DNA of 63,099 nucleotides from Obrimoposthia wandeli. Its lineage: Eukaryota. Each line of letters starts with the position of its first letter. The first letter of the stretch is position 1. The DNA is taken from assembly GCA_977020255.1 (NCBI GenBank), contig CDROCS010001060.1:186001-249099 (forward strand), given 5' to 3'. The notes under the pieces were generated by a model. It was not told the DNA's origin. It worked only from the letters and a program-made list of their open reading frames with translations, and searched no databases. Shown here piece after piece: positions 1 through 62,400 of the stretch. The translations under genes were made by a program, and so were the position numbers.

Positions 1-2582
1 TTAGAAAATGAAATTGTTAGAAGAAGTTTTTCTGCATGGACATCACCTGTTGTTTTAGTAAAAAAGAAAGACGGTTCTTTGAGATTTTGCGTAGACTACA
101 GAAAACTAAACGAAGTCACTCACAAAGATACTTATCCACTGCCAAGAATTGATGAAATATTAGACAAACTAAAAAATGCACAAGTATTTACAACTTTAGA
201 TTTACAGAGTGGATACTGTCAAATAGAAATTGAGGAGTCAGATAAATATAAAACAGCTTTCTCAACAGGAGAAGGATTGTATGAATTCAATGTCTTACCA
301 TTTGGATTAACCGGAGCTCCAGCAACATTTCAGAGATGTATGAGCCATATTTTAATGGATGCAGATCACGTAATGGTATATATCGACGACATTCTTATTT
401 TTTCAAAATATTTTGAAGAACATTTAAAAGATTTAGAAAACGTATTCTTAAGATTACAGGTGGCAGAATTAAAACTAAAACCAAAGAAATGTGAATGGAT
501 AAAAGATAAAGTAAATTACTTAGGACATGCTGTATCAGCAAAAGGAATACAACCAGACGAGAGTAATGTAGAAAAGATTAACAATTTTCCAATCCCAAAA
601 ACAGTAAAAAATATACAGGAATTTTTAGGGCTTGCAGGATATTATCGTAGATTTATTAGAAATTTCGCACAAATAGCAATACCATTAAATAAACTTATTA
701 AAAAAGATGAAAATTTTGAATGGGAAAAAGAACAACAAGAATCTTATGAATATTTAAAACAAAAACTAATCGAAAAACCTATACTTAGATATCCTAATTT
801 TAATAACTCATGTTTAGTTATGACTGACGCCAGTGGTTATGCGTTAGGAGCAGTTTTAGGACAACAGGAAAATAACGAAAAAGATCATGTGATAGCATAT
901 GCGAGCAGAGGTCTAAAAAAACATGAAAGAATTACTCAACGATAGAAAGAGAATGCCTAGCTATTTGCTTCGCAATGGAACATTTTAAACATTACTTATT
1001 AGGTCGAAAGGTTTATGTTTACACAGATCAAAGACCATTACAATGGCTTTTAAATCATAAGGATACAACATCTAGATTAATGAGATGGGCATTGATTTTA
1101 CAAAAATATGATATTGAAATAAAATATAGAAAAGGAAAATCTAACGCTAATGCAGATTGTCTATCACGAATAAGAGAAGAAATAAACGAAATAACTGCAA
1201 ACGACATCGAATTAAATCTTTTTACAATAATTCAAGCTAAATATGATGAAAAAGTAATTACTAAACTTCAAAGCAAAAATAATGAAATTCAGCAAATAAC
1301 TAAATACATTAGCACAAACGAAGTACCAACAGATGAAAAATTAAGAAAACATTTAAAAATTCACGAATCACGATACAAATATAGTAATGAAATATTATAT
1401 TATTTAAATGACAAAAATCTATATTCACTAGTTATTCCTAAATAAATTCAGTGTCAATTACTTCTTCAATATCACAATAGAGCGCTAGGAGGACATTTAT
1501 CATCAAAAAAGACACATTCACGATTAAATTTAAAATACTATTGGATTGACATGAAAGAAGAAGTAAAAAATTGGTGTAAAACATGTGAAATATGTCTTAA
1601 ACGAAAAAATACTTTACGTACCACAAAAATACCTTTAAAACCATTACCTTATCCATCAACCCACATGGAAACTGTTGCCATGGATGTAATGGGACCATTA
1701 CCTGAAAAACCCCGAGGAAATCGATATATAATAGTCTTTTCGGATTATTTTACAAGATGGCCAGAGGCTTTTCCAACATAAGACCATCGCGAAAGTTTTA
1801 GTCGATAAAAAATTATTTTTACTTTCGGTGCACCCCGAAAATTCTTAACCGACAAAGGTCCTGAATTTATAAATAATGTATTAGCGTCAATAGCTGAAAT
1901 TTTTCACATAATAAAAAAGATCAATACAACACCATATCAGCCTCAAACTGACGGGTTAGTAGAAAGATTTAATAGAACCCTCGAAGATATGATGGCATCA
2001 TATACAAACAACAACCAAACAGATTGGGATTTACACATACCTCCATGCCTTTTTGCATATAGAACATCAGTACATTCATCCACAGGAGAAACACCTTTTT
2101 ATCTTATGTTCCTCAGAGATCCTCAAATGCCTATTGAATTAACATTACTACAACCTACTACACAATACTTAGAAATACCTGAATATAAAATAGAAATTAG
2201 AGAAAGAATAAAACTAGCATTCGAAAAAGCTAAACTATTTGTAAAAAACATACAAGAAAATTACAAAGAATATTATGATAGAATAACTAAGCCATCAAAT
2301 ATAAAAAGCGGAAGTAAAGTGATGATTCACAATCCACAAATTAATGTAGGATTGTCACACAAATTATCAAAACCATACAAAGGACTATATACAGTCATTA
2401 GTACCAACGGAACCAACATAACAGCTAAACTAGATAATAAACCAAAATCAAAATAAATAAGAGCACATATAAACAGATGTCGAGAAATACCTGAGGAGAA
2501 TACAAAAGTAAAAAGTCACAAATATAACTTAAGATCAACTAACGATAATACAGTTCTACAAATGTTGACAATAAAAAACTAA
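1..2582 (+). pseudogene. pol: pol of element A: RT, RNase H and integrase, broken by a few frameshifts and stops
   Basis: [44 protein letters not shown] (RT). TDASGYALGAVL (RNase H). H-x4-GH...CKTC zinc finger, AMDVMGP / TDKGPEF / GLVERFNRTL (IN D,D,E) and KPYKGLY (GPY/F-like). ORF pieces 79-945, 975-1445, 1551-1781, 1989-2456. Confidence 0.95.
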
Positions 2583-2628
2583 CAAAAACAAAACTATTTT
2601 GAGTCATCAAACCAGAAATACAATAAAA

Positions 2629-3873
2629 ATGTCAATGAAAGAAATTGGTAAAATAATGATGTTATTGATAATATATTTTACATTAAAATATAACCTACTG
2701 AAAGTAAACGCAACAAACATAAATGACAATCAATCAATCATACAACAACAAACAAATAAATACGACTCAACAACTCATCTCATAAAAAATTTTGGATTAA
2801 TAACAATAATACCTGAAATCACATCAATAAAGTTAAAAATTTCTCTTCTTACAAACAAAACAGGAAATGTGCAAATCACACAAACAGATAGAAAACAAAA
2901 TATAATTATTTCAGGAATAAAATCACAAAAATATACAATACCATTTTTAAGAACAGAAACACAATATAAAATAAGAATTAAGTCGAAATTAAAAAATATA
3001 ACACTCTATGAAAGAATTATAGAAACTCACATATACCTAGCATCAATATAAAAAACAACAGCAAAATATATATCCAAACATAAAATAATGATAAAATGGG
3101 AATTTCAACTAAAAATAGATGACTTAGATAAAGCCCTCATTAGAATTAGATATAGAGGACATAATTCTAATTTTTGGAAAGACTCAGAAAAATAATTAGA
3201 AAATACACAAACTAAAACAAATTTAACCATAGAAAATATAAGATATCCAGAGAAAATAATTATGGACAATAGAGAATGCGTAATCACTAATAAACCAATA
3301 ATGTACAGACAATGGAGTCAAAAGTTTGAAAGTTATAAAAATCTAACGAAATTAACAATTTTAGGAAATAAGATATCCAAACTATATCAACTTATAATTT
3401 TTTGTGGTCGTTGGTCAGCAGTAAAAATTAAGAAATATGTCAAAGAAACAACCACAAAACAAATGCTACATACCACAGCATTTACATCAAAGATTTACAG
3501 AGTTACAAATCAAGTTGAAATCACGGAGAAAATAAGAATTAAATTAAAATTAAAAACAACAAAAACAATATCCTATAAATCATTTAATGAAAGTTTTAAA
3601 ATGCACTATGGTAAACAAGAACATTCAAGGAATGAAGATAAAAAAGAACTTATAATAATAGTTATAGTAATCGAAATAATTACATTTATAAATCAATTAT
3701 CATGGAGAATTTTAATTTTGAAACATACAAAAATGATAGAAACAAAACAACGAAAACACTTTTGCGGCTCCCCAGGCCCTTTTAATATTTATATTATTCT
3801 CAAGGATGAGAATTCTTCAGAATTATCTATAAATACTGTAATAGAAAATAGGAAAAGAAATATAACACAATAA
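2629..3873 (+). pseudogene. Accessory ORF of element A: signal peptide, FN3-like repeats, TM helix and cytoplasmic tail; two in-frame premature stops
   Basis: ORFs 2599-3051 and 3262-3873 share one frame. Hydrophobic MMLLIIYFTLKYNLLKVNA; FN3-like YTIPFLRTETQYKIRIKS and I.WEF...IRIRYRGH...W; TM LIIIVIVIEIITFI. The homologue in C (22283-23456, minus) has no stops over this part. Confidence 0.6.
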
Positions 3874-4447: not shown

Positions 4448-4631
4448 ACAAAACTCTGGTTAAACTATAACCATACATCCTTCTTTTGTACAAATTGTCT
4501 AACTTTTTGTTAATAAGTTTATTTTCATGACAAATCCCACATACTGCATGGATAAGACTGATATTTTTATAACTTTAAGACTGAGAAATAATTATATTAT
4601 TTTATTCAACTAACAAATTGATTAAAGCAGA

Positions 4632-13222: not shown

Positions 13223-13556
13223 CTCCTATGGGGGTAAACAAAGTCAGATCTCTGACGTTTTAAAAACAAAAATAGAAATAATGTCCCGTTTAGTATATAG
13301 CTGTCCAACGTGACTTCCACAAAATAAATTACTCGAGTCTGTTAATGTAAAGATAAAATATAAAATTTTGATTTTACACTTTTCATATCCACAAGCAATA
13401 AGACATTTAATGAATGATGCATAGTAAAATATTTTACTACTCTAAATGCTGTCCTCAGAATCAGTGGAGCAAAGGTCCATGACCTCAGGCAGGCTAGTAT
13501 TGGTAATGCTGGGGAGAGAGACCGTCAGTCCACATTCTTCTATAAGTTCTTGCTCT

Positions 13557-14528
13557 CTATGGAGGAAAATGTTTCGGGTCCATTGTGTGTACGAGGCTAG
13601 AGTGGGTATCCTTTTGTATTTCCTTATTGAAATACCACGAGACCATTCGAGCGAGTCCAGCTTGTTCTCTACGATTGATCTCTAATCGAATAGTATGTGT
13701 TGCTCCTAGATCCACCGTCTGCGAAAAATCGTTTTTCTGTAGTTCTAAAACCTTGAGGTAATTGGTTATTCCCGTTCCTACAAAAATGTTGTCTTTTAGC
13801 AAAGACTGAACGCGTTGTAACACTTCAACAGAATCAGGTTGGTTTCTTAACTTACGTTCGTTGAGGCCTTTTATTCTTGTCATATAATTCCTGATTCTGT
13901 CTCTGCTATTGCATTTTGTATCCAAAACGATTTGTCCACTTTTGTTCATTATAGTAATGCTGGCTAGGGTGGGTTGTTTGTTCATTTTTACTACCATTTC
14001 ACAATCGACAAAAAATATTTGAGGATTGTTGTGATATTAAAATGGCAGACTTGAACGGGACTAGGTCGCACAATTTGTTCTATGAATAATATGTTATGTC
14101 CACCCGACAAACGAATCATCAAATCGGGAGTTATTTAATGTAAGAGTGGTTTTGTAGGAGAATGCTTGCTTTTCTTGTGTTTTAAAAATCCACAGCCTTT
14201 TGCTACGTGAATCTCAATGTCCGTGCAAGTAGGTAAAAATTTCATCAACTCAAACAGTCTGTTCTGTTGGCTTTTTTCTAGTTTTGTTGAGAATTATGCT
14301 CTGTCTAGGGGTGTCTCTTAATTTGATGCTATTTGGAAGCTGGGTCTGATTGTCAAAAATCTTTATTCCGTAATGGTTATGGAAATACCTTGTTCCAAAC
14401 TACCTTATTTTTCCATAAAGGAACTTAGCCATTTTTGGACGTTGTTCTGCTAACTAGACTGACTTCTCTCTCTTACTCTGCGGCACAACCTGCCAGTTCA
14501 AATAAGGATTTGTACTTGTGGGTTCCAT
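13557..14528 (-). pseudogene. DEDDh exonuclease of element C, degraded
   Basis: FFVDCEMVVKMNKQPTLASITI. The upstream region translates to AKFLYGKIR*FGTRYFHNHYGIKIFDNQT, homologous to A's AKFLYQKMRQFNIAYFRNNGGRKMFSNQT. Stops, frameshifts and altered ExoII/III acids are present. Confidence 0.8.
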
Positions 14529-14907
14529 CTGTAGGGTATACAGATATAGTAAAAAAAAAATTGATTTTACATGCAAATATAAAATTTGTCAAATGTTTAT
14601 AAAATGAAATGTTCGTGTCAGATTTTTTGTCTCTTTTTGTTTATCAAAAGTCTGTAAATCATTTTATTTTTATGATGTAACAAGCTCAATCAAACAGGTA
14701 TATAAATAAGATATAATTTTTTCATTCTTTACTACATATTCTTGTTACTTCTATTATCAATATCAATATATACATATCTATATAAATATATTCGTTTTTA
14801 TTTATTCCTAATTTTTATTATGACACTTTAACTAAAGTTAATGAATATTAATACCCATTCATAAACATATTTCCTTTCCAAATCATGCCATAAGCTCAAA
14901 CTAATTC

Positions 14908-15189
14908 TCAATTTTCTTTTAATTTATATTTTAATTTACTCACTGTGGATTTACTAATTTTCACACCGAAATCATCACTTTCTCCCGGTTGAAATCCCAT
15001 TAAACGATTAATTACTGATCTCAATGATACAAGAGAGTTTAACGCTTCTATGAGTCGTCGTACTAATAATTCCTGATTTGTTTGGCTATGTTCTAATCTT
15101 TCATTTGCAACGTCAAAAGCATTATTCATTCGCTCACATTCCATTTCCTTGTCTTTCAAATGCGATCGCAGATTTATATTTTCTATCAA
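14908..15189 (-). CDS. Coiled-coil accessory protein of element C
   Basis: Homologous to 4079-4447 and at the same position. Also present at 43046-43252 and about 54170-54375. Confidence 0.6.
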   Translation of the reverse strand: MIENINLRSHLKDKEMECERMNNAFDVANERLEHSQTNQELLVRRLIEALNSLVSLRSVINRLMGFQPGESDDFGVKISKSTVSKLKYKLKEN

Positions 15190-15727
15190 TAATTTATTTT
15201 CCCATTTCTTCTGTCTCTTATATCTTCTTTTATTATTTTGTACTATTTTTTAATTTCTCATTTCTAAAATGTTAATAATTTTTGAGTTCATTTTTACTAT
15301 TTTCAATTTAAACTAAACACATACGCACTTTTCTTCATTAACATTATAATTACTTTATTTTATGATTAGTTTTTATTTTAGTATGTCAATTCGTGTTTTT
15401 ACTTGTATGAAAATTTTATGAAGATTTTTCTCTTTTCTTCTTATTATTCTCAATTATTGTATTTATTGATATGTTAGATGAGTTTGAAGAGCTAGGTATG
15501 ATAGATGTTATAAATGGCCCAGGAGGTTTACAATATTTTGTCCGATAATGTTTTTTGAAAATTGTGTTATTTTTTACTTTAATGACTTTCCATGTTATTT
15601 TTATGATTAATGTAAAGATTTCAATTATTATGATTGTTACAAAAATTTTCTTGTTATTTATATTTTTTGAGTATTTTTGTTTATTAAAGTGTATTTTTAG
15701 ACTTTCATTAAATGATTTATATGGTAT

Positions 15728-17106
15728 TGTTGGAATATTAATTAAAAGAATTAATTAATTTTTAAGTCAATTTAAATTGACATTTAATATTTATCTAAAA
15801 TGCCCACAATTAGGGAGGAATTCAAATTCAGCCTCCGACGGGGTGGTCCCGTTTCGCCTTGCCAGGCTCATCAGGAAGGCGGCTTGATAACAAGATTAAA
15901 CACAATGATTTTTCCGCCCAGCAATAGCAGCAGATGCGGCGGCGGTCTGCCCTTTCTCGGCCAGCGACAAGTCTGGTCCAGCTCCTCCACCATCCTTCCC
16001 CGTATTCCCCGTCATCCTAATCGGCAGTCTGAACAGCGACATTTCCCGGCTGCACATGATGACACTATCGTGCACAGACACCGATTCGTCTAGCCCAGAA
16101 CGAGATGGCCCATTCAACAGACTAGTATCCCAACACATACATCATTGTCTCCCACAAAATTTATCTTCCTTCCGACTGACAATTTTCTCTTTCTTTCTCT
16201 CCCAGTTTGTATGGTGACATCTGTATTTATGTGTGTGTACAAAATTTGTGATATCGATTTTTGACGATACATTTTGTGTGTGTGTGCGAGCCGGGGATTT
16301 CAGCAACAACAGCATCATCAGCAACATCATCATCATCGGCATCGTCAATATCATCAGCATTTGTGCCAGTGTGCTGTCTTTCGCACAGACACACACCGCA
16401 GTCTATCAATCTCCTTCTATGCCACAGCTGCAACATGCACTTTCCGCGATACTGCGATCCACCGTATCTCCCTACTTATCAATCTCCCTTTTTCCACACA
16501 GACCATCCTAACCAGCAGCATGTCAGTGTCAGGATGACCACCATCGCACTGGGTCAGTTTCGAAGTCCCCTCCTTCTGTAGATTCATCTCCGTATGTCAA
16601 GTGATTGAGATCTCCACAGTCATCATTGGTTATTGGAAGCGAATTTCAGTTTTGTCTGTCGTTCAGTGTGCGTGTGTTCAATCAAGGAATTTAACTATAT
16701 GTGTGTGCTGTGATTTTCGCTGTGGTTAGAGGAGACAGTGTTTGTCTGCGTGTTTGATCCCGATCATCGATCGGTAAAATTCTGCACAGCAGTTTTGTTT
16801 TCCTCTGACATATAAACAGCATGATTTCTGTGAAGCTTAACACACAAAAATATACAACATTTCAACCTGTTAAAAAATTGAATCATTATTCAAAAGATAT
16901 TTTCCCTGGAACTTATTAACAATTAAACAAAGACAAGTATTTGAACCTATCCAAAAGTTATTTTCGCTGGAACTTATTAACAATTAAATTAAAGACAAGT
17001 ATTTGAACCTATTCAAAAGATATTTTCCATGGAACTTATTAACAATTAAATTAAAGACAAGTATTTGAACCTATTCAAAAGATATTTTCCCTGGAACTTT
17101 ATAACA
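15728..17106 (+). repeat. 5' LTR of element B copy 1 (about 1379 bp)
   Basis: TGTT...AACA ends, followed by AT then TGG (PBS). Homologous to 43820-45141 and about 56146-57573. TATA-like catataaacag near 16810 and ~58-60-bp repeats at about 16890-17106. Confidence 0.88.
15831..15880 (-). ncRNA. Type I hammerhead ribozyme, antisense, in the B 5' LTR
   Basis: Minus strand: GCCUUC CUGAUGA GCCU-GGCA-AGGC GAAAC GGG-ACCAC-CCC GUC^GGAGGC. Confidence 0.92.
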
Positions 17107-17108
17107 AT

Positions 17109-17121
17109 TGGTGAGCTCGAC
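17109..17121 (+). promoter_or_regulatory. Primer binding site, probably tRNA-Trp-like
   Basis: TGGTGAGCTCGAC lies 2 nt after the LTR end and matches the avian retroviral Trp PBS TGGTGACCCCGAC at 11/13. Identical at 45144-45156. Confidence 0.65.
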
Positions 17122-17568
17122 TAAGAGCACAGAAACAAGGATAGAATTGCAGGTCATATTTTATTATTTTATTTTATTTATGATATTTTATTTGATAAAT
17201 TTGTATATTTACCTAATTTTTTTTTATTATTTACTGATTGTATTTATCATAATTACATTTAATTTAAGAGTTTACATAACTCCAGATTAACATCTATTTA
17301 TTATTGCTTTTAATTGATATATTACGTTTAATTACGATTTTTTTACATTTGATCAGTATCTACATTTACATAAAAACTTTATTTACTGAGTAGTTGTCAT
17401 ATATACAGTTGATTTAAGATTTTATTTACTTTGATTTTGTGGATACCATTTGTGTTTATTGGAGGATTAGAGATTTCGTTTACATTTTTAACTATCGTTT
17501 ACTTATATATTGAATATTTTTATTTTTACTTAACGATTATATTTGTCATTTTTAAATTTCCACTATAC

Positions 17569-17807
17569 TTGAGGTGTTTGCAGCTTTGCGCACAAGCCTC
17601 GTAGGTCCAAAATACATTTTCATAATTTTCATATAGTTGAGGTGTTTGCAGCTTTGCGCACAAGCCTCGTAGGTCCAAAATACATTTTCATAATTTTCAT
17701 ATAGTTGAGGTGTTTGCAGCTTTGCGCACAAGCCTCGTAGGTCCAAAATACATTTTCATAATTTTCATATAGTTGAGGTGTTTGCAGCTTTGCGCACAAG
17801 CCTCGTA
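17569..17807 (+). repeat. 68-bp tandem repeat in the B 5' leader (3 full units and 1 partial)
   Basis: Units start at 17569, 17637, 17705 and 17773. Copy 2 (about 45608-45710) has only 1 full unit and 1 partial. Confidence 0.93.
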
Positions 17808-18954
17808 AGATTAAACATAATTTTGTTTCCTGAAACATAGTCGGGTCCTGTTCTCTAATTTTCTTTTATAATTTGATTTGTGTTGATCATTTTAATCGTA
17901 AAGGTTATAGAAAAATAATTTATTGGTTTTCAGAGTTCTGTTCACATAAAGGCTAAACACTGGCTGTTGTCGGATAGAGTTTTGAACCCTGACAAATATA
18001 TTAAAAAAGTAATCAACAAACGAAGAACAACTCAAATACAAAATATTTTGAGAAAATTTTAACATTTTGCTTTGAACTGGTTTACCAGTAAAGATTCGTT
18101 TTTTGAGAACTATAAATTGGAGTGGATTTATCTATTAGAGGCGTAAAAGTAAAATAAAAAACTAAAAAGATAATAAAAGTTAAAATAATCATATAAATAT
18201 ATGTTTGTATAAAAAATAAAATTGATCAAAAAATTTAAAATTTTGTCGCAAATTGTCTTGTTTCCCAAGTTACGTCGAGTGCTATCATATAAAGACTTTA
18301 TACTGGTTGGCGGTGGAAGGTCTCAAAGTGATAAGGGACAGAGATTATTGAGATAAATTTTTGAGTCTTGTTATTGTACTAAAAAATTAAAAAACAAAAT
18401 AAAATAAAACTTCGGAAAGATAAATTTTCTCCAGAGATTTTCAGAGAGCGTGTTTTTAATATTGATAAGAGAGTTTGATTTTGAGATTGACTAAATAACT
18501 TTTACGAATTTCACCGAAATATTTTTAGTTTCAGTACGCAGTACGCATTTTTCATTTTTCGCAATATTTGATTTTGAAACTCTAAATAAATTACTAATAA
18601 CACAAACCCAAAGATCTATCACAAAAATAGACACACAAAATAAGAAAATAAAAACGTAGCGCTAGCCTTCACTGGAGAAGAATTCAAACAAGATTAGTTA
18701 GGACAGACTCCAGTGAAAAAACGATTCAAAGACCCAAATCACAAATCAGTTTTACAACAAATAACGATTTACTTACACAGACTTCCCCACTCTCAGAACA
18801 TCTGGACCTAACATTAACCTCAGATACAGAGAGTTTACCTTCACCACAAACATCTGACTCGGATAGTTCGTCAGAGATAACGGCATCAGTAGCCGTACCA
18901 GAACCACCTATTGTACAAATAAACAACGAACAAATAATCGATCAACCTCAAATA

Positions 18955-20273
18955 ATGGCTGAACATAAATTAAATGTTCCTTTAGACGCTTTCAATGGCG
19001 ATAAATCTTCACTACCCGAATTTTTAAATAGATTTGATTCATTTGCTCAGGCATTTGAATGGACTAATGTAGAGAAACTTAGGGTTTTTCCGGCGTATTT
19101 AAAGGGCACTGCCTTAACAATTTATAGAGGATTAAATAATGAACAGAAAGACACATGGGACCATTTAGTTCAGAATTTTCAAAATATGATTTTAGGAGCA
19201 CAGTCTGAACAAAATTACCTTAACCAATTTAGGCAACGTGAACAACATTTGGAGAACCCACAAATATTTTTGCAGTTGAATTACGAAGATTAGCCTTAAA
19301 ATCATTTCCCGGAATTGAGGAAGTCTTAAGAGAACGTTTGCTCCTACATCAATTTCTATATGGGCTAAACAGTAAAATAAAAAATCACCCAGCACTACTA
19401 GAAGTAGAAAATTTTCAACAAGCTGTAAATAAGGCTCAACTTGTAGAAACAAGATTAAACATGTTACAACAATCTGAAGTTTCAGCATTAACCTTTGAAA
19501 AAATACAAAGACCAACAACACCACCAAATTTCAATCAAACTCAAAACTATAACCCAAATACACAATCTAATTACCAAAGCCAACAACAATATACACCACC
19601 GACAAATAACTTTTATAGAAATCAAACAAACAGAAACTATACAGACTCACAAATTACACAAAGATCTTTCCAAAAATGTACAAATTGTGGACTGCAAAAT
19701 CACACAATAGAGAATTGTTATAAAATAACCAACAACAAATTTTGTAGATTTTGTAAAAAAGACAATCATACTATTGAAACTTGCCGAAAATTGTTATACA
19801 GACAAGGTAATAATATAAGACCACAAAATAATAACTTTAACAATCCTAATAATAATTTCAAAAATACAAATAGTAATTTTAGAAGCCCATATAATAATTT
19901 CAATAATCAAAATAATCAAGCTAAATATTTTAATACTAATACAAAATTTTGTAAAATTTGTAATATGAAAAATCACAATACTGCTGAATGTAGCAAACTA
20001 AATACAATGATGAACCAATTTGGTAACACAACAATAAAACAACAACAACCACAACCACAGAGTCAAAAAACAGTACAGTTTAACAATCAAATTCAACAAT
20101 ATGCTTCCAGAAACCCAATACATACTATTGAAAACACTGATATAACTCAGGAAACAGAAGAAGTTGCATTGATGAGATTAAGGCAACAAGAAATAGATAA
20201 TCGCTACAAAGAAACACATCAGCAATACCAAAACAATGAACAAAACACAAATAGTACCAACTCTCAATCCTAA
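18955..20273 (+). pseudogene. gag: gag of element B copy 1 (frameshift near 19250)
   Basis: DAFNGDKSSLPEFLNRFDSFAQAFEW...FPAYLKGTALTIY capsid-like N-terminus and three C-x2-C-x4-H-x4-C knuckles (CTNCGLQNHTIENC, CRFCKKDNHTIETC, CKICNMKNHNTAEC). Confidence 0.9.
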
Positions 20274-20487
20274 TTCGGAGAAATATTTAGAAATGGTTGT
20301 CTAACATTAGAAAAAAGAACACAAATAAGTACAAAAATAAATCAAACCACTCAAACACAAGATACAAAATCGAAAAAATAAAAATAAACGAAAAACACCA
20401 AAAAATAGTAAAAAGTCAACTCTTAAAAATACATATAATTTTAACAAAATCATCCAGAATTTATGGAAAATAATTCAAATAATATTT

Positions 20488-22282
20488 ATGATATGTATTA
20501 TTACAAATATAATAAAACCAGTTAATGCCTTGGAAGCGTATGATTGCTCAAAATATAGTATTCAAAATAAATATTCCTTAATGGATTTACAACAATGTGC
20601 TGATGCCGACCCAAACGAAGTAAAAATCAAAACCACCAAGTTATTCCATGTATACCAGGAAACAGATTTCATAAATACAGAAGTTTACGAGTGTAGGGTA
20701 CACGTAGAAACATTCATAACATATTGCGGACAACACAGCCATAATTCAATTGTCAAACCTGCACTAGGAAAAATACCAATAATTGTCGATGCACTAAATT
20801 GTAAGGACGCTTTTGCAACAGGAGAACTAAGAATAGATAGAGAAATTAAAGTACGAGCAGTAAAAAATAAAATTATACAACAAATGATTACAGTAGTAGG
20901 AACAATAAAATCTGACGGTGCATGTACAACAGGCACATACGTTGTGATGGGAGTCAAACAAAGTGGTTTAGTAGTTATAAAAAACTTTGAAGTAGAACTA
21001 AGAACGTTCAAGGCAACATTTGACCCATCTACAAATAATATGGTAACTATGCCATTTTGCGAAGCAAATATAAGTCATTGCAATACAGGATCCTCAATTT
21101 TATATTATAAGGTAAAAACAGACCAATGTAAATTAATACTCCTAAAATCTGAAATTTTTCAAATAATTCAAGGTCAAAGATTTAAAGATGACCCGGAACT
21201 TGATCAAAGAGTGCCAAAAGATATACATAAAAAATATAGGACAAGAAAAATTCAAAAAACATCAACCCCAACTATTTTAATGTCAACAGAACAAGGTTCT
21301 GGAATGCGATTTATTAAAAAGAAAGAGGAATCCCGATATGGACACTCTATTTATACAACTAATTATAAAGGAATATATTTAAGTAAAGAAAAAATATATA
21401 ATGCAAAAACGACACCAACAAAGTTTGACATAAAAAATTACGATTATTTTAATAATAAATTAGATTATTTTTATCACAAAGGATTAATGACAATAGAAGC
21501 AATTTATACAGAAACGATAATGAATGACTGTAAATTAAACCAAGAAATTTTGAAAACAAAATTGGCAATTATTGCTACAAATCCAGAATTAATAACACCA
21601 TTATTACCACTAGCTGATGGTACTTTTGGAAGAGTAATGGGAGAAGTGCTATATACTTATCAATGTAAAAAAGTAATAGTTAATATAAGAAATCATAATA
21701 AATGCACTAAAGAATTACCAATTTCATACAAAAATCATTCATTATTCGTAGAACCAATCACCAAAATAATACTTTTAATACATACAGTATAAAGGAAATG
21801 AATTGTTCAAACATAATGGCACCTCATTATCAAATCTCAAAGGATATTTGAATATCACTCCCAAGAAGAGACATAGTTGCTCAACCATTAAAATTACAAT
21901 TAACTGACCTCAATAACGACATAGAAATAAAATCAGACAATGAACTAAATACAAAAGGTATATACATACAAGAAGACATAGACAAATTAAGAAAATACAT
22001 TTTATTTCCTCAAATTAGATCACGAATTTTAACACAAATAATTGAAAGATCAGTACCAAACGGAATTGGCCGTCCTGATTACGATTTATTACTTTCTCCA
22101 AATCATTTTATAAAAGCTACACAAAATACAATGTCAAAAATATGGGGAAAAGTTTTAATTTTTGGTCAAGCATTTTCTGGACTTGTGGGAATATATGCAT
22201 TGCTGATATGTTTTAAGATCCTTTTGAGTCAAATTTTATCTATATATTATATTTATAAAGTTGGTGGATTGACATGGAAACT
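20488..22282 (+). pseudogene. env: Chuvirus (Monjiviricetes)/gB-type class III fusion glycoprotein, env-like, B copy 1
   Basis: Signal peptide ...ICIITNIIKPVNA|LEAYDC; YECRVHVETFITYCGQHSH; YFNNKLDY...DCKL; GEVLYTYQC; KGIY..EDIDKLRKYILFP; C-terminal FGQAFSGLVGIY TM region. This pattern is recognised from chuviral G proteins. One frameshift near 21780 and one stop. Confidence 0.85.
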
Positions 22283-24150
22283 TTGTTGTGACGGTTGTAG
22301 CATGTGGTATTTGTTTTATGGTTGTTTCTTTGATATATTTCCTAATTGTAATTACTGACCATTGGCCACAAAAAATCGTAGGTTGATATAATTTGGATAT
22401 TTTATTTCCAAAAATCCTTAAGTTTGTTAGATTTCTACAAGTCTCAAATTGTTGTCCCCATTGTCTATACATTATTGGTTTGTTAGTATTTACACATTCT
22501 CTATAATCCATAATTATTTTTTCTGGATATCTTATATTTTTTATAGTTATATTTGTTCTGATTTGTGATTTTTCTAATTGTTTTTCTGCGTCTTTCCAAA
22601 AATGAGCATTATGTCCTCTATATCTAATTCTAATGAGGGCTTTATCTAAGTTATCTATTTTAAGTTGAAATTCCCAATTTATCATGATTTGATGTTTTGA
22701 TATATATTTTGCTGTCGTTTTTAATATTGAAGCTAAGTATAAGTGAGTTTCTATAATTCTTTCATAGAGTGTTATATTTTTTAATTTCGACTTAATTCTT
22801 ATTTTATATTGTGTTTCTGTTCTTAAAAATGGTATTGTATATTTTTGTGATTTTATTCCTGAAATAATTATATTTTGTTTTCTATCTGTTTGTGTGATTT
22901 GCACATTTCCTGTTTTGTTTGTAAGAAGAGAAATTTTTAACTTTATTGATGTGATTTCAGGTATTATTGTTATTAATCCAAAATTTTTTATGAGATGAGT
23001 TGTTGAGTCGTATTTATTTGTTTGTTGTTGTATGATTGATTGATTGTCATTTATGTTTGTTGCGTTTACTTTCAGTAGGTTATATTTTATTGTAAAATAT
23101 ATTACCAATAACATCATTATTTTACATATTTCTTTTATTGACATTTTTATTGTATTTCTAGTTTGATGACTCAAAATAGTGTTGTTTTGTTTTTGTGAGT
23201 TTTTTATAGTTAACATTTGTAGAACAGTATTATTGCTAGTTGATCTTAAGTTATATTTGTGACTTTTTACTTTTGTATTTTCTTCAGGTGTTTCTCGACA
23301 TCTGTTTATATGTGTTCTTATTTCTTTTGATTGTGGTTCATTGTCGAGTTTAGCTGTTATGTTAGTTCTGTTGGTACTAATGACTGTATATGGTCCTTTG
23401 TATGGTTTTGATAATTTGTGTGACAACTCTACATTAATTTGTGGATTGTGAATCATTACTTTACTTCGCTTTTTATATTTGATGGCTTAGTTCTTCTATT
23501 ATAATATTCTTTGTAATTTTCTTGTATATTTTTGACAAATAATTTAGCTTTTTCGAAAGCTAGTTTTATTATTTCTGTAATTTATATTTTATATTCAGGT
23601 TTTTCTAGGTACTGTGTAGTAGGTTGTAGTAATGTTAGGTCAATAGGCATTTGAGGATCTCTGAATAACATAAGGTAAAAATGTGTTTCTCCTGTAGATG
23701 CATGTACTGATGTTTTATATGCAAAAAGGCATGGAGGTATATGTAAATCCAATCTGTTTGGTTGTTGTTTGTGTATGATGCCATCATATCTTCGAGGGTT
23801 CTATTAAATCTTTCTACTAATCCGTCGGTTTGAGGGTGATATGGTGTTGTATTGATCTTTTTTATGTGATAAATTTCAGCTATTGACGCTAATACATTAT
23901 TTATAAATTCAGGATTTTTTTCGGTTAATAATTTTCGGGATGCACCGAAAGTAAAAAAAAAATTCGACTAAAACCTCCGCAATGGTTTCAGCCTTATGAT
24001 CATGTGTTGGAAAAGCCTCTGGCCATCTTGTAAAATAATCAGAGAAAACTATTATATATCGATTTCCTCGGGGTGTTTCAGGTAATGGCCCCATTACATC
24101 CATGACAACAGTTTCCATTTTGGCTGATGGATACGGTATTGGTTTTAAAA
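22283..24150 (-). mobile_element. Element C copy 1, 5'-side fragment: integrase core and C-terminus running into the FN3 ORF
   Basis: ORF 22236-23456 reads KPYKGPYTVI...HKYNLRS and continues without a stop into the signal peptide and FN3 repeats. ORF 23909-24265 contains VMDVMGP. There is no 5' LTR; the fragment abuts a kinesin exon at about 24150. Confidence 0.88.
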
Positions 24151-27100
24151 GTGGGCCTAGACGAACTCGAGGAGGAGGAATACGATGACGGTGATCTCGA
24201 CGAGAATGACGATCTCGCCCTTGTCCGATCTGCCAATGTAAGTGGGATCCAAAGAGAGATAACATTACTTTGCTTGGCCGTATTGCTTCTTTCCAGATAG
24301 TTTAGTTTTGAACACTAAAAAAATGGGTCAAACAATTAATTACATTTATTAGTAAATTAGAGTAAACAGCAAAATTTATGAAAACATTTAAATATCCTTT
24401 ACAAATATAATCTGATAATATGTGATCATTTGTTCAACAATATTATTTTAAGGGGATTCTTCGCCTATTATGACCAATTTCGATTTTTCGATGTACCAAA
24501 TATTATTTGATACATGTGGTTTCTTAAAACTAATGATTCTTAAATTTACATGGAATATTTCGCAGTCACCGTTTCATCATGACTATGTTGCAATATATAA
24601 AATAAATTAAGATAACATACAACATATATTAAAATACTTTTAAACACAAAATCTTTTACTTAAAACCCATATTAGTCAATTTAGTGAATTTAGTCCAATT
24701 TACTGTACTCAAATCTCTTACAATTTTGTGAATTTGTCTGTAAAAATTGTCAGTATCGGCGGGTCGAAAAAACTCTTGATTTTAAAATATTTAGCGTTTA
24801 TAATGTACTACTTTTATATTTAAGTATTTAAATTTATGCATTTCTAGAAAAATACTGTTGACAAATGCTTCTCAGCACTGATTCTAAATGAAAAAAGTAT
24901 CAACCGCAATATTATGTTTTAAGTTTTGTAAATTTATTTATTTATCAATGTTTATATTTTCTATTACATATCTAATTGATAAAACAGTGGTAAATAAACA
25001 ATAATGTACATAAACTTATGCCCAAAATTAAATTCTAACACTTCTCATTTTTCTTGTTCCATTAATTGAATAAAAGATAATTCCATCATACAACGTTTGG
25101 TTCTGATAGACTTGAATGCGGTGACTGGGTGTATGTGTGATTGTGGTCCACACTGAGCAACTCAGTGACCGCGTAACTCTGTATCCATTGCAACAAATGC
25201 AAACATACATTGCTCCTTTGTTGACTTGAGCTGATAACTCTGCTCTCGCTTGTAAGACAATGATGTACTCTGTTTTTCCGTAGCGAGTTTCTGTACTGTG
25301 GAGACGAGTGCTTGGAGATACTTGCTTGGTAACCATCACAATAGCCTGGCTACTCGGCAATTTTATTATACAGGAATACGCATCTCCACCTGACTCCTTT
25401 ACTGTTATTGATTTTCTTTTCTAGGGTTAAACATCTCTTAATCGTTTTCATTACAGACTTAATTATTAAAAAATATTGTCTTGTTGCTTTATCAAAGCAT
25501 CTCTCTTGTGCCAAATATCACTTATTTATTAGATTTTAAAATATTGCTTTTCCCAGAAATATTTATTCCACCTTTTGATAACTAATGTTTTGGAAATATA
25601 ATCCGTTTATTAGTGTTGCGGAAATTGGATTCTTTATAGCAATTGAGCGTTTTCCTGAAATTTGAAGTGTCTTCTGTGGTATACAGGGGATATTAGTAGC
25701 TGCTCTATTTTCCCAGACTAGGTGAACATGTACGTTGGGCAGCAACTGTCGACAAACATGATCAGTAGTGGCTAAACTGCACTTGTTAGTTGAGGTGACT
25801 TGTTCAGTCGTATTCTTGTCATGTAGACAGCCAATTTCAACTTGCATAATAGAAGGGGGTATCTATGACTCATTGGGGAAAGATTTTCTGATGGAGTTTC
25901 CTCCCCCTATTTAGGCGGAATTTATCGACGACGAGATGTTCAGCTTCCAGGAACTCGTGAACAAGATCGAGTCTCTTGAGGACAATGTCTGTGATAAGCA
26001 TAAAGATCTCGTGGACGTGAGTAATTTTTGATTTGGTCTCAGTTTTAATTCGCATATTTACTCATTTGTATTATATTAAAAAATTAATTAGGTGTATTGC
26101 CTTATAAGAATAATAACTAAAATATATTTTTAAATTAAGCACTCAACTCTTGTAGCGTCTGGCGTTTGAACTGCTGAACTAAATGTTCATCGAATTCATT
26201 TTCATTTTTGATATACTTCTTTCCAATAGATATTTTTGGCATGGGAGTCTTATTATTGTGTCAGGGAATATTTGTATGTGGTCATTTCAGTAAGGGGAAA
26301 ATCTATTGCAGAGGTGTAGTACACTATAAAAGCTGTCATTTCAATGTATGCCAAATATCTAAACTACTATTGCCAAGCATCGATTTGAAGGTGTATTTCA
26401 CGATGATAATCGATATGCGAAAGGAATGCCGAATAAAGGGGAAGTTGAGCGATTATTGCAAACGAAAATCATTACGACATGAGAAATGTTAATTGACGAC
26501 CACACTTCATGCCGAATAACTCTGAATGGCATGTATGCTAAACTTTAATGCTAAATCTCCCATAGGCCTTGACAATATACAAATATACGAACTAAAAACC
26601 GCTACTATGACAATTTGGGGGTTTTATTAACATTCTATTTTATTCTACCAATATCTAATTATTATTAGTTTTTAATTGATTCCGCAATCCTATTCAGAAT
26701 CTGACAACTCAGTTGAAGAAACACACGAGCCTTTTCAAGATGACCAAGCAGCCGGATTATCCTCTGGACGGTAAGATCTTCTGCATCTCAAATAACAAAC
26801 AATAACTTCGTTTTGTACATTTAGAGTACGCCAATAAGTTGGAAGATCTTCTTGACGATCAGCTCAAAGGGCTCACAGATTTCAAAAGTAAGCATCTGTT
26901 TTCGTTTGTGAGAGTTAAATTGAAATATAAACAAACCCGTTTTCTCTACTTGTATGGTACAGTATGCTGGTGGTCATATCTTTTCCAACTTTTCAGGTAT
27001 TTAGATTAATTAAACCTTTTATTTATAAAATAAGTTGTTTACATTATCACACACAATTGAGAAATTAAAATAGTTGAAACAGTCTAGCCCATTTGACAGC

Positions 27101-57573: not shown

Positions 57574-59480
57574 GTTGTTTCTTCTATTTATTTTAATTTT
57601 TAACAACTAATTTTGTGATTTTCTGTGATGTTAATTTGGTTTGATTCTAAGTCTTTGTTGTAATGGTTCATGGCATATGGGTATTTGTTTTTATGATTAA
57701 TTTTCTTTGATATATTTCCTAGTATGTTCTTGTTATTATTTTAATCGTGGGATTAAATCTCGTTTGGATCTTCTTTAAAATCATAAGTTTATTGAATTTC
57801 TACCGGTCTAAATTCTTTGTCTACTTCATCTATACATTTATTGGTTCATTAGTATTACACATTCTCTATAATCCACAAAATTATTTTTTCTGGATATTAT
57901 ATTTTTTATAGTTATATTTGTTCTGGTTATGATTTTCTAATTGTTTTCGTCTTTTAATATGACTTTTTGTCTTATCTCGTTCTAATAGAGGAAGCTTTAT
58001 CTTAATTATCAACATGGGTTAAAATTTAATTATCGCTAGTTTGATGTTTTATTATATGTTCACTGTCATTTTAATATTGAAGCTAAAGTATAAGTGAGTT
58101 TCTATAATTCACTTATGAATGTTCTCTTCTTTAATTCATTTTACTCTGTTTATATTGTGTTTCTGTTTTCATACGTAAGTGTTCTCGTTTTTAATTTTGC
58201 TTATCTTCTTCTTCTAAATTTTTCGAAATTTCGATTTCTTTTAATTCTTCCTAATTTTTTTATAAAAGTAGTCTTTTAACTTTTCTTCAGTGTGATTTTA
58301 GGTATTATTGTAATTAGGTCCAAAATCTTGTGAGATGTATTTGTTGATCATGTTCTTCTTTTCATGTTTAATAATTAGTTATTTAGGTTCTACATGTTGC
58401 ACATTAGCGAAGGTTTTTTGTAAAAATATATTGCCATACTTATATTCATTTGCACCTTTCTTATTTCTTCAGCCTTTTTATTGTATTTCGGTTTGATGAC
58501 TCAAAAATAAGGTGTTGTTTTCATTTTTATTAAGGTTTTTATAGTTCTATTAACACTTACAAACCAATATATATTACTGAAATGGATCTTGATTCTCTTT
58601 GACTTTTTACTTTTGTATTTCTTCAGGGTGTTTCTCGACATCATTTATATGTGTTCATATTTCTTTTGATTAATAGCAACATTAAAGGTTTAACAATATA
58701 TTGGTTTCTGTTGGTGCTAATGATAACATGTGGTCCAGCTGTATGGTTTTGATATAATTTTGTGTATGACCTGCGACTCTACATTAATTTGGTTGTGAAT
58801 CATTACTTTACTTTAGCTTTTTATGTTTGATCGCTTGGATTCTTCTAGCCTTAATATTCTTTACTTAATTTTCTTGTATCTTTTTTGACTTAAATAGTTT
58901 TGTTCGCTTTTAAAGCTAGTTTTATTATTCTCATAATTTATATTTTATATTCAGGTTTTCTAGGTACTATGTAGTAGGGTTTGTAGTAATGTTAGTTCAA
59001 TAGGCATTGAGGATCTCGGAATAACGCAAAAATTAAAAATGTGTTTCTCACCTGTAATTATGTACTGATGTTTTATATACGGCATAGAGTGTCTACAAAT
59101 ATAAATATGTTTGGTTATTGTTTTATGTATGATGCCATCATATCTTTGAAAGTTATATTAAATCTTTCTACTAATCAAATAGGTTTGAGGGTGATATTAG
59201 TTGTTTTATTATTGATCTTTTTTTATGTAAATAAATTTGACTATTATTTCAACGTATTTATAAAATTCTAAGTTTTTTCAGTTTCTTTTCAGGATGCAAT
59301 TTGTTTTGCATTCTCATCAAATATCATAATGGTTTCAGCCTATAGTCACTTTATTTGGAAAACTTATATAAATAAAGTGAAAGCTATTATATATCAGTTT
59401 CCTCAGGTGCTTTTGAGTGGCATTTACCATCAGCCATGGTTTCATTTGGCTCAATCTGATTTTAGTGTTGGTTTCAAAGT
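57574..59480 (-). mobile_element. Element C copy 2, FN3-integrase fragment (error-rich)
   Basis: Noisy duplicate of 22283-24150, extending about 100 bp further toward the B insertion site. Confidence 0.7.
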
Positions 59481-62400
59481 GACCTAGAATAGAACTCAAG
59501 GAGGAAGAATATGGTGGTAGTGAATCTCAATGAAATGACAGTCGCCTTGTCCGATCTACCAATGTAGTGGATCCAAGAGGTAACAGCTACTTTGTGGCGC
59601 GCCGAAGCTATTTCTGCAGATATTGGTTCGAGCTTTGTTTCAAAGAATATTGGATCAAACAGATCGAGATGGTCATTAATCGATAATCAGATGAGCGAGA
59701 CTTTGACGTTTCGACGTCATTTTTGAGCGGTGACCGACAATGCGGTCATTTGTTCAACGTAATGCGCTGGAGTTCTTCTTCGCAGGCCGGGTATGGGACT
59801 GTTTCCGGAACAGCACCATGTTGTGCGGTATGCGGTTTCTGCAAATAACAGTTCTTCTAAATTTACCAGACTCTTTTACAGTCACCAGACTTACCATCAT
59901 GAGCTATCTTTCTGTCGACTCAATTAAGATAACATACAACATATCAAATACTTTTTAAACTACAAATCTTTGAACCATAATCAGTTAGCGGGACTGAATG
60001 GGCTACCACTCGAAATCTCTTTGATTTTACGGATTATCCCAAAAGGTATCGATATCAGCGGGATAGAAAAACTCGGATACTGAAATATTTATGACATAAA
60101 CCATGTACTGTTTTTGATAAGCCAGAATTTAGCGACACCTACAAGAAAGTGCTGACCTGACCGGAAATGGCACCTCAAGCGCGGTTCAAAATGAAAGAGA
60201 TATCAAACCGCCGTATTGTCTTTAAAGTTTTATGGAATGTTTGTTATTAATTGTTTTATATTTCTCATTATGTATCTGACTGACCAAACAGGTGATAAAC
60301 CGGCAATAATAACAGCAGCCTTCATTCAGTCACCAGCAGCCTGTTTTTCGCATTCCAGTAAATTGGAATAAAGAATGATTTTCATCCTTTTCGCGGCGTT
60401 GGTTCTGATGGGCACCAGACTCCGATGACTGTGATTGTATATGCGCGGATGTGATACCATACCAGCGTCAGCAACACTCTTATCTTTAACTATAGCAAAT
60501 ACCGGCGCCATTTCACTCACTGTGACCAGAATGATAACTTCTGCTCTCAAACTGTTGGTGTATAACTCGATTATCTGTTGCGATTCGGAAGATCAATGAG
60601 CAACTACTCTGTTTTCGTGGCAGGTTTCTGCCACTGCCGGAGACAAAGTTATGATAACAACTGGTGGCGCCATCTGGCAACCTGCAAACTATCTGCTGAC
60701 TTTATTGCTCTGGAACGTGCTTCTCTGCTGAAATAACACCGTATTGATTTCACCTACCGGAGGATTCAAGCATTCACTAATCGTTTTCATTGCGTACAAT
60801 TAATAAAAGAGCTCTTGTCTATGCGACAGTTTATCAAAGGAAAAACCTCTTTGTAAAGTATAATATATTTATTGGATTTTCCGTCTTCTTTTAAAGCATT
60901 TATCTTTTCGTGCTATTCTTTTAGAATATTGTCATTGTTATTTGCATTGATTTACTATATACAGTGGAAGCATTTTCATAATTTGATATTATTTTCATGT
61001 GGTATACAGGGATCTATTTAATGGCGCAACTCTATTTTCCCAGACTAGGTGAACATGTACGTTGGGCAGCAACTGTCGACAAACATGATCAGTAGTGGCT
61101 AAACTGCACTTGTTAGTTGAGGTGACTTGTTCAGTCGTATTCTTGTCATGTAGACAGCCAATTTCAACTTGCATAATAGAAGGGGGTATCTATGACTCAC
61201 TGGGGAAAGATTTTCTGATTTAGTTTCCTCTCCCTATTTAGGCGGAATTTATCAACGACGAGATGTTCAGCTTCCAGGAACTCGTGAACAAGATCGAGTC
61301 TCTTAGGGATTAATGTCTGTGACTATGCAGCATAAAGATCTCGTGGACGTGAGTAATTTTTGATTTGGGCTCAGTTTTAATTCGCATATTTACTCATTTG
61401 TACTATATTAAAAAATTAAATTAGGTGTATTGTCTTATAAGAATAATAACTAATATATATTTTTAAATTAAGCACTCAACTCTTGTAGCGTCTGGTGTTT
61501 GAACTGCTGAACTAAATGTTCATCGAATTCATTTTTATTTTTGATATACTTCTTTCCAATAGATATTTTTGGCATGGGAGTCTTATTATTGTGTTAGGGA
61601 ATATTTGTATGTGGTCATTTCATTAAGTGGAAAATCTATTGCAGAGGTGTAGTACACTATAAAAGCTGTCATTTCAATGTATGCCAACTATCTAAACTAC
61701 TATTGCCAAGCATCGATTTGAAGGTGTATTTCACTGATGATAATCGATATGCAAAAGGAATGCCGAATAAAGTGGAAGTTGAGCGAATATTTCAAACGAA
61801 AATCATTACGACATGAGAAATGTTAATTGACGACCACACTTCATGCCGAATAACTCTGAATGACATGTATGCTAAACTTTAATGCTAAATCTCCCATAGG
61901 CCTTGACAATATACATATATACGAACTAAAAACCGCTACTATGACAATTTGGGGTTTTTATTAACATTCTATTTTATTCTACCAATATCTAATTATTAGT
62001 TTTTAATTGATTCGTCTATTCAGAATCTGACAACTCAGTTGAAGAAACACACGAGCCTTTTCAAGATGACCAAGCAGCCGGATTATCCTATGGACGGTAA
62101 GATCTTCTGCATCTCAAATAACAAACAATAACTTCGTTTTGTACATTTAGAGTACGCCAATAAGTTGGAAGATCTTCTTGACGATCAGCTCAAAGGGCTC
62201 ACAGATTTCAAAAGTAAGCATCTGTTTTCGTTTCTGAGAGTTAATTTGAAATATATACAAACCCGTTTTCTCTACTTGTATGGTACAGTATGCTGGTGGT
62301 CATATCCTTTCCAACTTTTCAGGTATTTAGATTAATGAAACTTTTTATTTATAAAAGAAGTTGTTTACATTATCCCACACAATTGAGAAATTAAAATAGT

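What the first reader, a model, noticed from the sequence alone, without database searches (positions are those of the whole stretch)
22283..23456. Integrase C-terminus reads through into a signal-peptide, FN3-repeat type I membrane protein
Seen: in C, the GPY motif and the usual pol end (KYNLRS) continue without a stop into a hydrophobic segment and at least two FN3-like repeats. The TM and tail lie at 15416-15727. In A, a TAA and a 5-nt deletion separate the two. Inference: a second membrane protein, perhaps a receptor-binding, decoy or superinfection-exclusion factor, which would bracket Pol between two membrane proteins in one polyprotein.
Basis: partly seen in the sequence, partly recalled or inferred. 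Interest (0 to 1): 0.7.

Follow-up and report, generated by a model that had tools for sequence, protein, structure and literature searches.

The report
Retrotransposon's second membrane protein after integrase
In a very abundant virus-like jumping gene of an animal genome, one long reading frame runs from capsid, fusion protein and enzymes straight on into a predicted second surface protein with a likely fibronectin-type domain; it may help the particles attach to target cells, but that role is untested.

Summary
The element is a Ty3/gypsy LTR retrotransposon with a gB-type env between gag and pol. Other genomic copies carry gag-env-PR-RT-RH-integrase-signal peptide-ectodomain-TM-tail in one 2889-2911 aa frame. 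The linker after integrase is under purifying selection as protein (dN/dS 0.11), and copy A's breaks are private decay. A distant relative (L153, RT 70% identical) has the same layout with no Met before its second signal peptide. The TM at 15416-15731 does belong with copy C: a nested insertion split the element. FN3 has moderate support for the first domain only (ESM Atlas 0.94; profile score above all shuffles; no Pfam hit; AlphaFold uninformative). The second repeat is unsupported. Most likely the polyprotein crosses the ER membrane twice and releases a second type I glycoprotein, equimolar with Env, that serves attachment (about 0.4); host-signalling decoy is the main rival. The gag-env-pol layout is published; nine literature searches found no post-integrase membrane protein. 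This scan noted the same layout before in another genome (e1-9041064). New variant of a known kind.

The parts
23241..23486 (-). Integrase C-terminal GPY/F domain of copy C, ending in KYNLRS
   Evidence: dN/dS 0.08 between subfamilies
23145..23240 (-). Cytosolic linker between integrase and the second signal peptide; likely holds the protease release site (inferred)
   Evidence: open in C; dN/dS 0.11, Fisher p 0.003
23061..23144 (-). Predicted internal signal peptide 2, ending VNA
   Evidence: hydropathy; (-3,-1) rule recalled, no SignalP run; first Met is Ile in 23 of 54 readable loci
22734..22982 (-). Ectodomain domain 1, likely FN3
   Evidence: ESM Atlas 0.94, 173 shared features; hhalign above 40 of 40 and 30 of 30 shuffles; no Pfam hit
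22320..22727 (-). Ectodomain domain 2, fold not established; two Cys shared by both subfamilies
   Evidence: dN/dS 0.19, p 4e-5; FN3 test not above shuffles; Cys and sequons
22283..22319 (-). Start of Thr-rich stalk; copy C is cut here and joined to the env of element B
   Evidence: 2-nt microhomology at the join
15416..15731 (-). End of stalk, predicted TM2 (15590-15649, with a central Glu) and cytoplasmic tail to the stop; 3' half of the split element
14908..15249 (-). Downstream ORF, coiled-coil-like (decayed)
13557..14036 (-). Downstream DEDD-type exonuclease ORF fragment (RNase_T)
   Evidence: Pfam PF00929 E 1.5e-7
15732..22282 (+). Element B: LTR-gag-env half of a nested element that separates the ectodomain from TM2
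   Evidence: (PF03732 weak, PF24664 E 2.6e-52)
2300..3873 (+). Copy A: the same module in one piece (GPY, signal peptide at 2629, ectodomain, TM, tail), with four stops and a 5-nt deletion
57582..59594 (-). Copy E: indel-rich duplicate of C that reaches the nested-insertion point

Best explanation
The element encodes gag, a gB-type fusion protein, pol and a predicted second type I membrane glycoprotein in one reading frame, and that second protein likely serves as the attachment partner of the fusion protein on particles or producer-cell surfaces. Shown: the single frame, its prevalence, selection on the linker and ectodomain, and the same layout in a distant relative. Predicted: two internal signal peptides and two TM anchors send Env and the second ectodomain into the ER lumen, signal peptidase frees their N-termini, and Pol stays in the cytosol tethered at both ends until the element's own protease releases it. 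Inferred: the one-frame design makes the second protein equimolar with Env and puts it in the same membrane at the site of assembly. Its FN3-like domain on a Thr-rich stalk then binds a host surface molecule and positions the fusogen, as the separate binding proteins of herpesviruses do for gB (recalled analogy).
For: Single natural frames of 2911 and 2889 aa ending just after TM2 and tail, one with 1284-bp LTRs 99.8% alike. 85 of 103 best-scoring matches have no stop across the query (biased towards open copies). With an ectodomain-only query, 13 of 29 copies are open from GPY to the ectodomain and the other 16 break at scattered sites. The one recurrent stop (4 of 29) falls on separate branches of the tree. 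Linker dN/dS 0.11 and domain 2 0.19 between subfamilies. L153 (RT 70%, integrase 52%, env 44% identical) has a 3703-aa frame with the same order, two ectodomain repeats (34% identical to each other, E 6e-6), a Thr-rich stalk and a clean TM, followed by a coiled-coil-like ORF and a homologous exonuclease. It has no Met in the 114 residues before its second signal peptide, so separate initiation needs splicing. The ectodomain is the fastest-diverging module (no detectable similarity to L153), as expected of a host-contact surface. The sister giant family also ends its polyprotein in signal-ectodomain-TM-tail.
Against: No RNA, protein or particle data. No SignalP or TM predictor was run. TM2 is only moderately hydrophobic (KD 19-mer 1.9-2.2) and holds a Glu. 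AlphaFold failed (pLDDT 32 and 35). No homologue in two large protein searches. The ectodomains of this family, L153 and the sister family are not detectably homologous, so the shared layout could be convergent. Frame-breaking lesions are denser in the A-run-rich linker (7 of 29 copies in 36 codons) than in the integrase core (11 of 29 in 215 codons), so loss of the module may be tolerated. Sister families carry phosphatases and RING proteins, which points to host manipulation as a general use of cargo.
Confidence: 0.4

Rival explanations
1. Same processing, but the protein is a captured receptor fragment that acts on the host cell: a decoy or dominant-negative for an FN3-type receptor pathway, or an adhesion molecule that keeps the expressing cell alive or in its niche.
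For: FN3 neighbours in the Atlas and the weak fold matches include cytokine and tyrosine-kinase receptor ectodomains and a poxvirus IFN-gamma binding protein (Z at most 6, low-confidence model). The tail has no enzyme domain. The sister family carries two DSPc domains and three RING-like ORFs, and Burro carries apoptosis and ubiquitin modules (PMC6431247, passages).
Against: No host donor was detectable among FN3 loci of this genome (30 of 147 matches examined). The fold matches are generic beta-sandwiches. The position at the polyprotein end is shared by three families whose other cargo differs.
Confidence: 0.25
2. Superinfection exclusion: the protein binds or removes the entry receptor in the producer cell and limits re-entry by the same or competing families.
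For: Type I topology, rapid divergence between subfamilies, and module swapping (C is a recombinant between subfamilies within the ectodomain). Receptor interference by retroviral Env is established knowledge (recalled).
Against: No direct evidence; Env itself usually does this; nested insertions of the same family occur in this window, though these need not involve entry.
Confidence: 0.12
3. The selected function is mainly topological: signal peptide 2 anchors the integrase end of Pol to the assembly membrane or sets Pol dosage, and the ectodomain is a lumenal chaperone or assembly partner for Env through the charged TM residue.
For: Linker is strongly conserved. Glu in TM2 in 64 of 68 readable loci across both subfamilies; env TM1 holds a Lys here and in L153. 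Charged TM residues pair HCV E1 and E2 (recalled).
Against: The ectodomain is long, on a stalk and under selection (domain 2 dN/dS 0.19); the Glu is not in the same place in L153.
Confidence: 0.15
4. A neutral or decaying passenger, fused by chance loss of a stop codon.
For: High dN/dS in the N-terminal extension (1.28) and stalk (0.62); copy D has deleted the ectodomain.
Against: Purifying selection on linker and domain 2, open frames in both subfamilies, same layout in L153.
Confidence: 0.04

Closest known systems
GAG-ENV-POL HSV/gB-type errantiviruses of Platyhelminthes, Bryozoa and Nematoda (Chary and Hayashi, PMC13524379; abstract, section 5 part 1 of 2, passages and supplement searches seen)
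   Same: Ty3/gypsy pol, gB-type env placed between gag and pol, LTRs, many young copies; the listed Schmidtea elements span about 14.5-18 kb, this one about 14.5 kb.
   Different: The paper's main text has no occurrence of 'fibronectin' or 'exonuclease', and its 7 text supplements none of 'fibronectin' or 'FN3'. The only C-terminal addition to integrase seen in the passages read is a chromodomain. Figures were not visible.
Burro/GYPSM1 giant gypsy elements of planarians (PMC6431247, passages of section 7 seen)
   Same: env in frame between gag and pol in one polyprotein; accessory domains fused in frame; L153 has ubiquitin-like hits between gag and env.
   Different: Less than half the size; no BIR, BCL2, MATH or ankyrin hit in the frames scanned; the passages name no FN3 or second membrane protein after integrase.
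Bdelloid rotifer LTR elements with ORF3 cargo (PMC5408684, passages seen)
   Same: DEDD exonuclease, coiled-coil and TM-bearing ORFs downstream of pol; GPY/F integrase end.
   Different: There the TM ORFs are described as separate ORF3s in elements without a recognisable env; here the membrane protein is in frame with integrase and comes in addition to a full fusogen.
sORF2 of Drosophila MDG1-group elements (PMC11952523, abstract seen)
   Same: An accessory transmembrane protein used for cell-to-cell spread of an LTR element.
   Different: Short, FAST-like, replaces Env; here a 300-aa ectodomain accompanies Env.
Planarian secretory cell nidovirus (PMC6211748, passages seen)
   Same: Single-ORF polyprotein with captured extracellular-type modules and a Thr-rich region at the 3' end.
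   Different: An RNA virus; its domains are fibronectin type II, an unrelated fold.

Membership tests
Ty3/gypsy LTR retrotransposon | Order PR-RT-RH-integrase with GPY/F end | tested here: met
   Pfam; order in frame
Ty3/gypsy LTR retrotransposon | Direct LTRs with TG...CA ends and a PBS-like TGG after the 5' LTR | tested here: met
   LTR pairs 99.8% and 99.1% alike; ends; priming tRNA not identified
GAG-ENV-POL gB-type errantivirus (PMC13524379) | gB-type env between gag and pol | tested here: met
   PF24664 E 2.6e-52 and 9.1e-45, protease follows in frame
GAG-ENV-POL gB-type errantivirus (PMC13524379) | Placement in the published POL tree; five-domain trimer fold | not tested
   No reference sequences at hand; env not folded
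Burro/GYPSM1 | env in frame between gag and pol | tested here: met
Burro/GYPSM1 | Over 30 kb, about 5000-aa ORF with BIR, BCL2, MATH, ankyrin cargo | tested here: not met
   about 14.5 kb LTR to LTR, 2911 aa; no such Pfam hits in window frames
FN3 (PF00041) | Profile hit over the Pfam cut-off | tested here: not met
   no fn3 hit at E up to 1 or 0.1; L153 likewise
FN3 (PF00041) | E-F strand motif and domain-scale pattern, domain 1 | tested here: met
   hhalign score 21.0 against shuffle maximum 12.2 (21 columns, probability 16%); global alignment of 78 columns above 30 of 30 shuffles; Atlas 0.94
FN3 (PF00041) | Seven-strand beta-sandwich fold | tested here: inconclusive
   pLDDT 32 and 35; six strands modelled in domain 1; best Z 6.0 among mixed beta-sandwiches; Foldseek nothing at E 0.001
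FN3 (PF00041) | A second FN3 repeat | tested here: inconclusive
   not above shuffles; Trp and IRYR pattern seen by eye only
Type I membrane glycoprotein | Cleavable signal, lumenal sequons and Cys, single TM, tail | tested here: inconclusive
   hydropathy, five ectodomain sequons in subfamily 2 and five after the predicted cleavage site in subfamily 1, two shared Cys; no dedicated predictor, no experiment

The most novel reading that the evidence does not exclude
A clade of invertebrate endogenous retroviruses splits entry into two glycoproteins, a class III fusogen before Pol and a fast-evolving FN3-based attachment protein after integrase, both cut from one flavivirus-style, membrane-threaded polyprotein: a two-component entry machine not described for retroelements.
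Probability: 0.3. Interest if true: 0.82.

Novelty: new variant of a known kind. Interest (0 to 1): 0.58.

Why it matters
Enveloped retroelements are thought to use one Env for binding and fusion. How gB-type Envs of invertebrate elements find their target cell is open, since herpes gB relies on separate binding proteins (recalled). A conserved second membrane protein in the same frame is a concrete candidate and can be tested as a single gene. The layout also implies that Gag and Pol are made tethered to the ER membrane in equal amounts with Env, an assembly route unlike that of classical retroviruses.

Tried and rejected
Pfam on the ectodomain: nothing relevant. Protein searches with the module: none at E 0.01 among 3929 candidates of near length, none among 1.84 billion representatives, none for L153's module; PDB sequences none. 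AlphaFold twice with shallow alignments of genomic copies: unusable; the fold searches on those models are weak. Host donor: profile A1 against 117 frames from 30 of 147 fn3 matches in the genome gave nothing significant. L153's module not found in G000 with that query. Viral contigs: no env relative. No RNA holder listed. Contigs of four runs of one sample showed one-base deletions in A-runs at similar shares in the linker and in the ectodomain, and no common separating change among the rows shown; 58 substitution rows were not shown. My first idea that the TM at 15416 came from an unrelated subfamily (74% to A) was rejected. A separated sublineage was rejected by the tree. The integrase-core dN/dS was inflated by out-of-register pairs and was redone on 7 and 4 copies. 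No complex prediction was run, because the ectodomain does not fold in the predictor and Env is a trimer.

Full report
Observation. The minus-strand frame 22236-23486 is open from the integrase GPY motif through KYNLRS, a 32-codon linker, a hydrophobic segment ending VNA, and about 260 residues of ectodomain. At 22283 it meets the plus-strand env of another element, with 2 nt of microhomology. C's own integrase core is broken upstream, so both window copies are dead.

The element. Pfam finds gag (weak), a Monjiviricetes-type fusion glycoprotein, aspartic protease, RT, RNase H and integrase, then a coiled-coil-like ORF and an RNase T-type exonuclease. The window lies in a 1.35-Gb animal assembly. 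I did not determine the host; earlier AI notes on this genome call it a probable flatworm.

Does the distant TM belong to C? At first it looked foreign, 74% to A. The genome holds two subfamilies about 67% identical in this module. C is a recombinant, subfamily 1 through domain 1 and subfamily 2 beyond, and the 15416 piece is subfamily 2 (88-95% against 59-66%). A natural uninterrupted stretch, L087, maps to copy E over positions 16-1506 and to the TM pieces at 43823 and 15731 from position 1506 on. One element was therefore split by a nested insertion, the block was duplicated, and C lost 68 more bases.

Fused or separate? The full query gave 103 scored matches out of 15,553 candidates; 85 of 103, including the window's own, have no stop across the query. 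That ranking favours open copies. With an ectodomain-only query, 13 of the 29 other copies examined (of 150 matches) are open from GPY into the ectodomain. The other 16 break at scattered positions. The one repeated stop, in 4 of 29, lies on separate branches. Of five copies read in full, two carry a single frame of 2911 and 2889 aa from gag to the stop after the tail; the other three are broken upstream. Between subfamilies (7 and 4 copies, 28 pairs, not independent) dN/dS is 0.04 in the integrase core, 0.08 in the GPY domain, 0.11 in the linker (p 0.003), 0.46 in domain 1 (p 0.03), 0.19 in domain 2 (p 4e-5), 0.62 in the stalk and 1.28 in the N-terminal extension. A linker conserved as protein after the usual end of pol is the best evidence for read-through. 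Against this, frame-breaking lesions are about four times denser in the linker than in the integrase core (7 of 29 copies in 36 codons; 11 of 29 in 215); the linker is rich in A-runs, and similar one-base deletions occur in ectodomain A-runs.

A distant relative. One metagenome contig, L153, the only confirmed match of 464 candidates, has a 3703-aa frame: gag, signal, env, TM, protease, RT, RNase H, integrase with GPY, linker, signal, two repeats, Thr-rich stalk, TM, basic stop-transfer and tail, followed by a coiled-coil-like ORF and an exonuclease. RT is 70%, integrase 52%, env 44% and exonuclease 30% identical to this family. Its repeats are 34% identical to each other, and the second scores above 25 of 25 shuffles against an FN3 profile while the first does not. 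It has no Met in the 114 residues before the second signal peptide. Its ectodomain shows no detectable similarity to ours. The sister giant family in G000 also ends in signal-ectodomain-TM-tail, again without detectable similarity.

Is it FN3? Pfam, PDB sequences and two large protein searches found nothing. The ESM Atlas ranks FN3 clusters at the top: 0.91 for the whole ectodomain and 0.94 with 173 shared features for domain 1, though its benchmarks were not measured on parts. Against a profile of 22 FN3 domains from G000, some probably bacterial, domain 1 beats all shuffles in local and global mode, on the E-F strand motif; domain 2 does not. AlphaFold gave pLDDT 32 and 35; the best structural match of domain 1 was Z 6.0 among mixed beta-sandwiches. 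I put FN3 at about 0.75 for domain 1 and 0.4 for domain 2.

Mechanism. Two signals and two anchors predict an alternating topology: Gag in the cytosol, Env in the lumen, Pol in the cytosol, second ectodomain in the lumen, tail in the cytosol. Signal peptidase would free both ectodomains and the element's protease would release the enzymes, as in flavivirus or HCV polyproteins (recalled). Both signals end in small-residue motifs. Shared Cys and several sequons fit a lumenal domain. TM2 has a Glu in 64 of 68 readable loci (77 scanned, a few being the same copy twice). Equimolar synthesis with Env in the same membrane, a beta domain on a Thr-rich stalk and fast divergence make attachment my best guess (0.4). 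Host-signalling decoy (0.25), assembly partner (0.15) and exclusion (0.12) remain open. None was tested.

What is known. GAG-ENV-POL gB-type elements are published for flatworms, bryozoans and nematodes (PMC13524379; abstract, section 5 part 1, passages, supplement searches). In-frame env and fused cargo are published for Burro (PMC6431247, passages). Exonuclease, coiled-coil and TM ORF3s are published for rotifer elements (PMC5408684, passages). I also saw passages of PMC6211748 and PMC3315495 and the abstract of PMC11952523. Nine searches listed no paper on a signal-ectodomain-TM module fused after integrase; the library lacks most subscription papers, Repbase entries, figures and bioRxiv supplements, which could hold it. 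This scan reported the same layout in another genome (e1-9041064); that is an unchecked AI note, and I had reached my reading before seeing it.

Verdict. Real, selected and shared beyond this family; a new variant of a known kind of element, with function unproven. Interest 0.58.

Noticed in passing
L091-L110, L154-L155 (G000): A sister gag-env-pol family with frames up to 5301 aa carries, after GPY, two dual-specificity phosphatase domains, several signal/TM cassettes ending in signal-ectodomain-TM-tail, and three RING-like ORFs downstream. Earlier notes describe this family.
   Followed up: partly
window 11102-27774 and 39193-63099: A tandem segmental duplication of about 28 kb period; the first copy has lost element B's pol and 3' LTR by a deletion joining env to copy C.
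   Followed up: yes
window 22283-23144: Copy C is a recombinant: 98-100% like subfamily 1 through domain 1, 96-100% like subfamily 2 from about residue 125 of the module.
   Followed up: yes
window 53713-53720: Element D has an internal deletion joining the integrase GPY region directly to TM2, removing the ectodomain.
   Followed up: partly
window 51297-59594: Indel-rich stretch (72-82% to its paralogues); probably poor assembly consensus rather than age.
   Followed up: no
window 4626-5801 and 13557-14036; L153 12085-13473: A DEDD-type exonuclease ORF with an unknown N-terminal part follows a coiled-coil-like ORF in both subfamilies and in L153 (38% and 30% identical).
   Followed up: partly
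window 10021-11112 and 36244-37179: Two copies of a RING, TRAF-zinc-finger and coiled-coil frame without a visible MATH domain.
   Followed up: no
L153 97-11208: This relative has two aspartic-protease-like motifs in tandem and weak ubiquitin-like hits between gag and env.
   Followed up: no
L118-L120, L127-L130, L132, L136 (G000): One FN3 exon-sized frame occurs in many near-identical copies on different contigs: an expanded host family or cargo of another repeat.
   Followed up: no
L114, L116, L117, L121, L123, L124, L131, L135, L137 (G000): Long intronless FN3-bearing frames that look bacterial, so the assembly probably holds contaminant contigs.
   Followed up: no
window 17547-17807: A 68-bp tandem repeat in the leader of element B, with fewer copies in D.
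   Followed up: no
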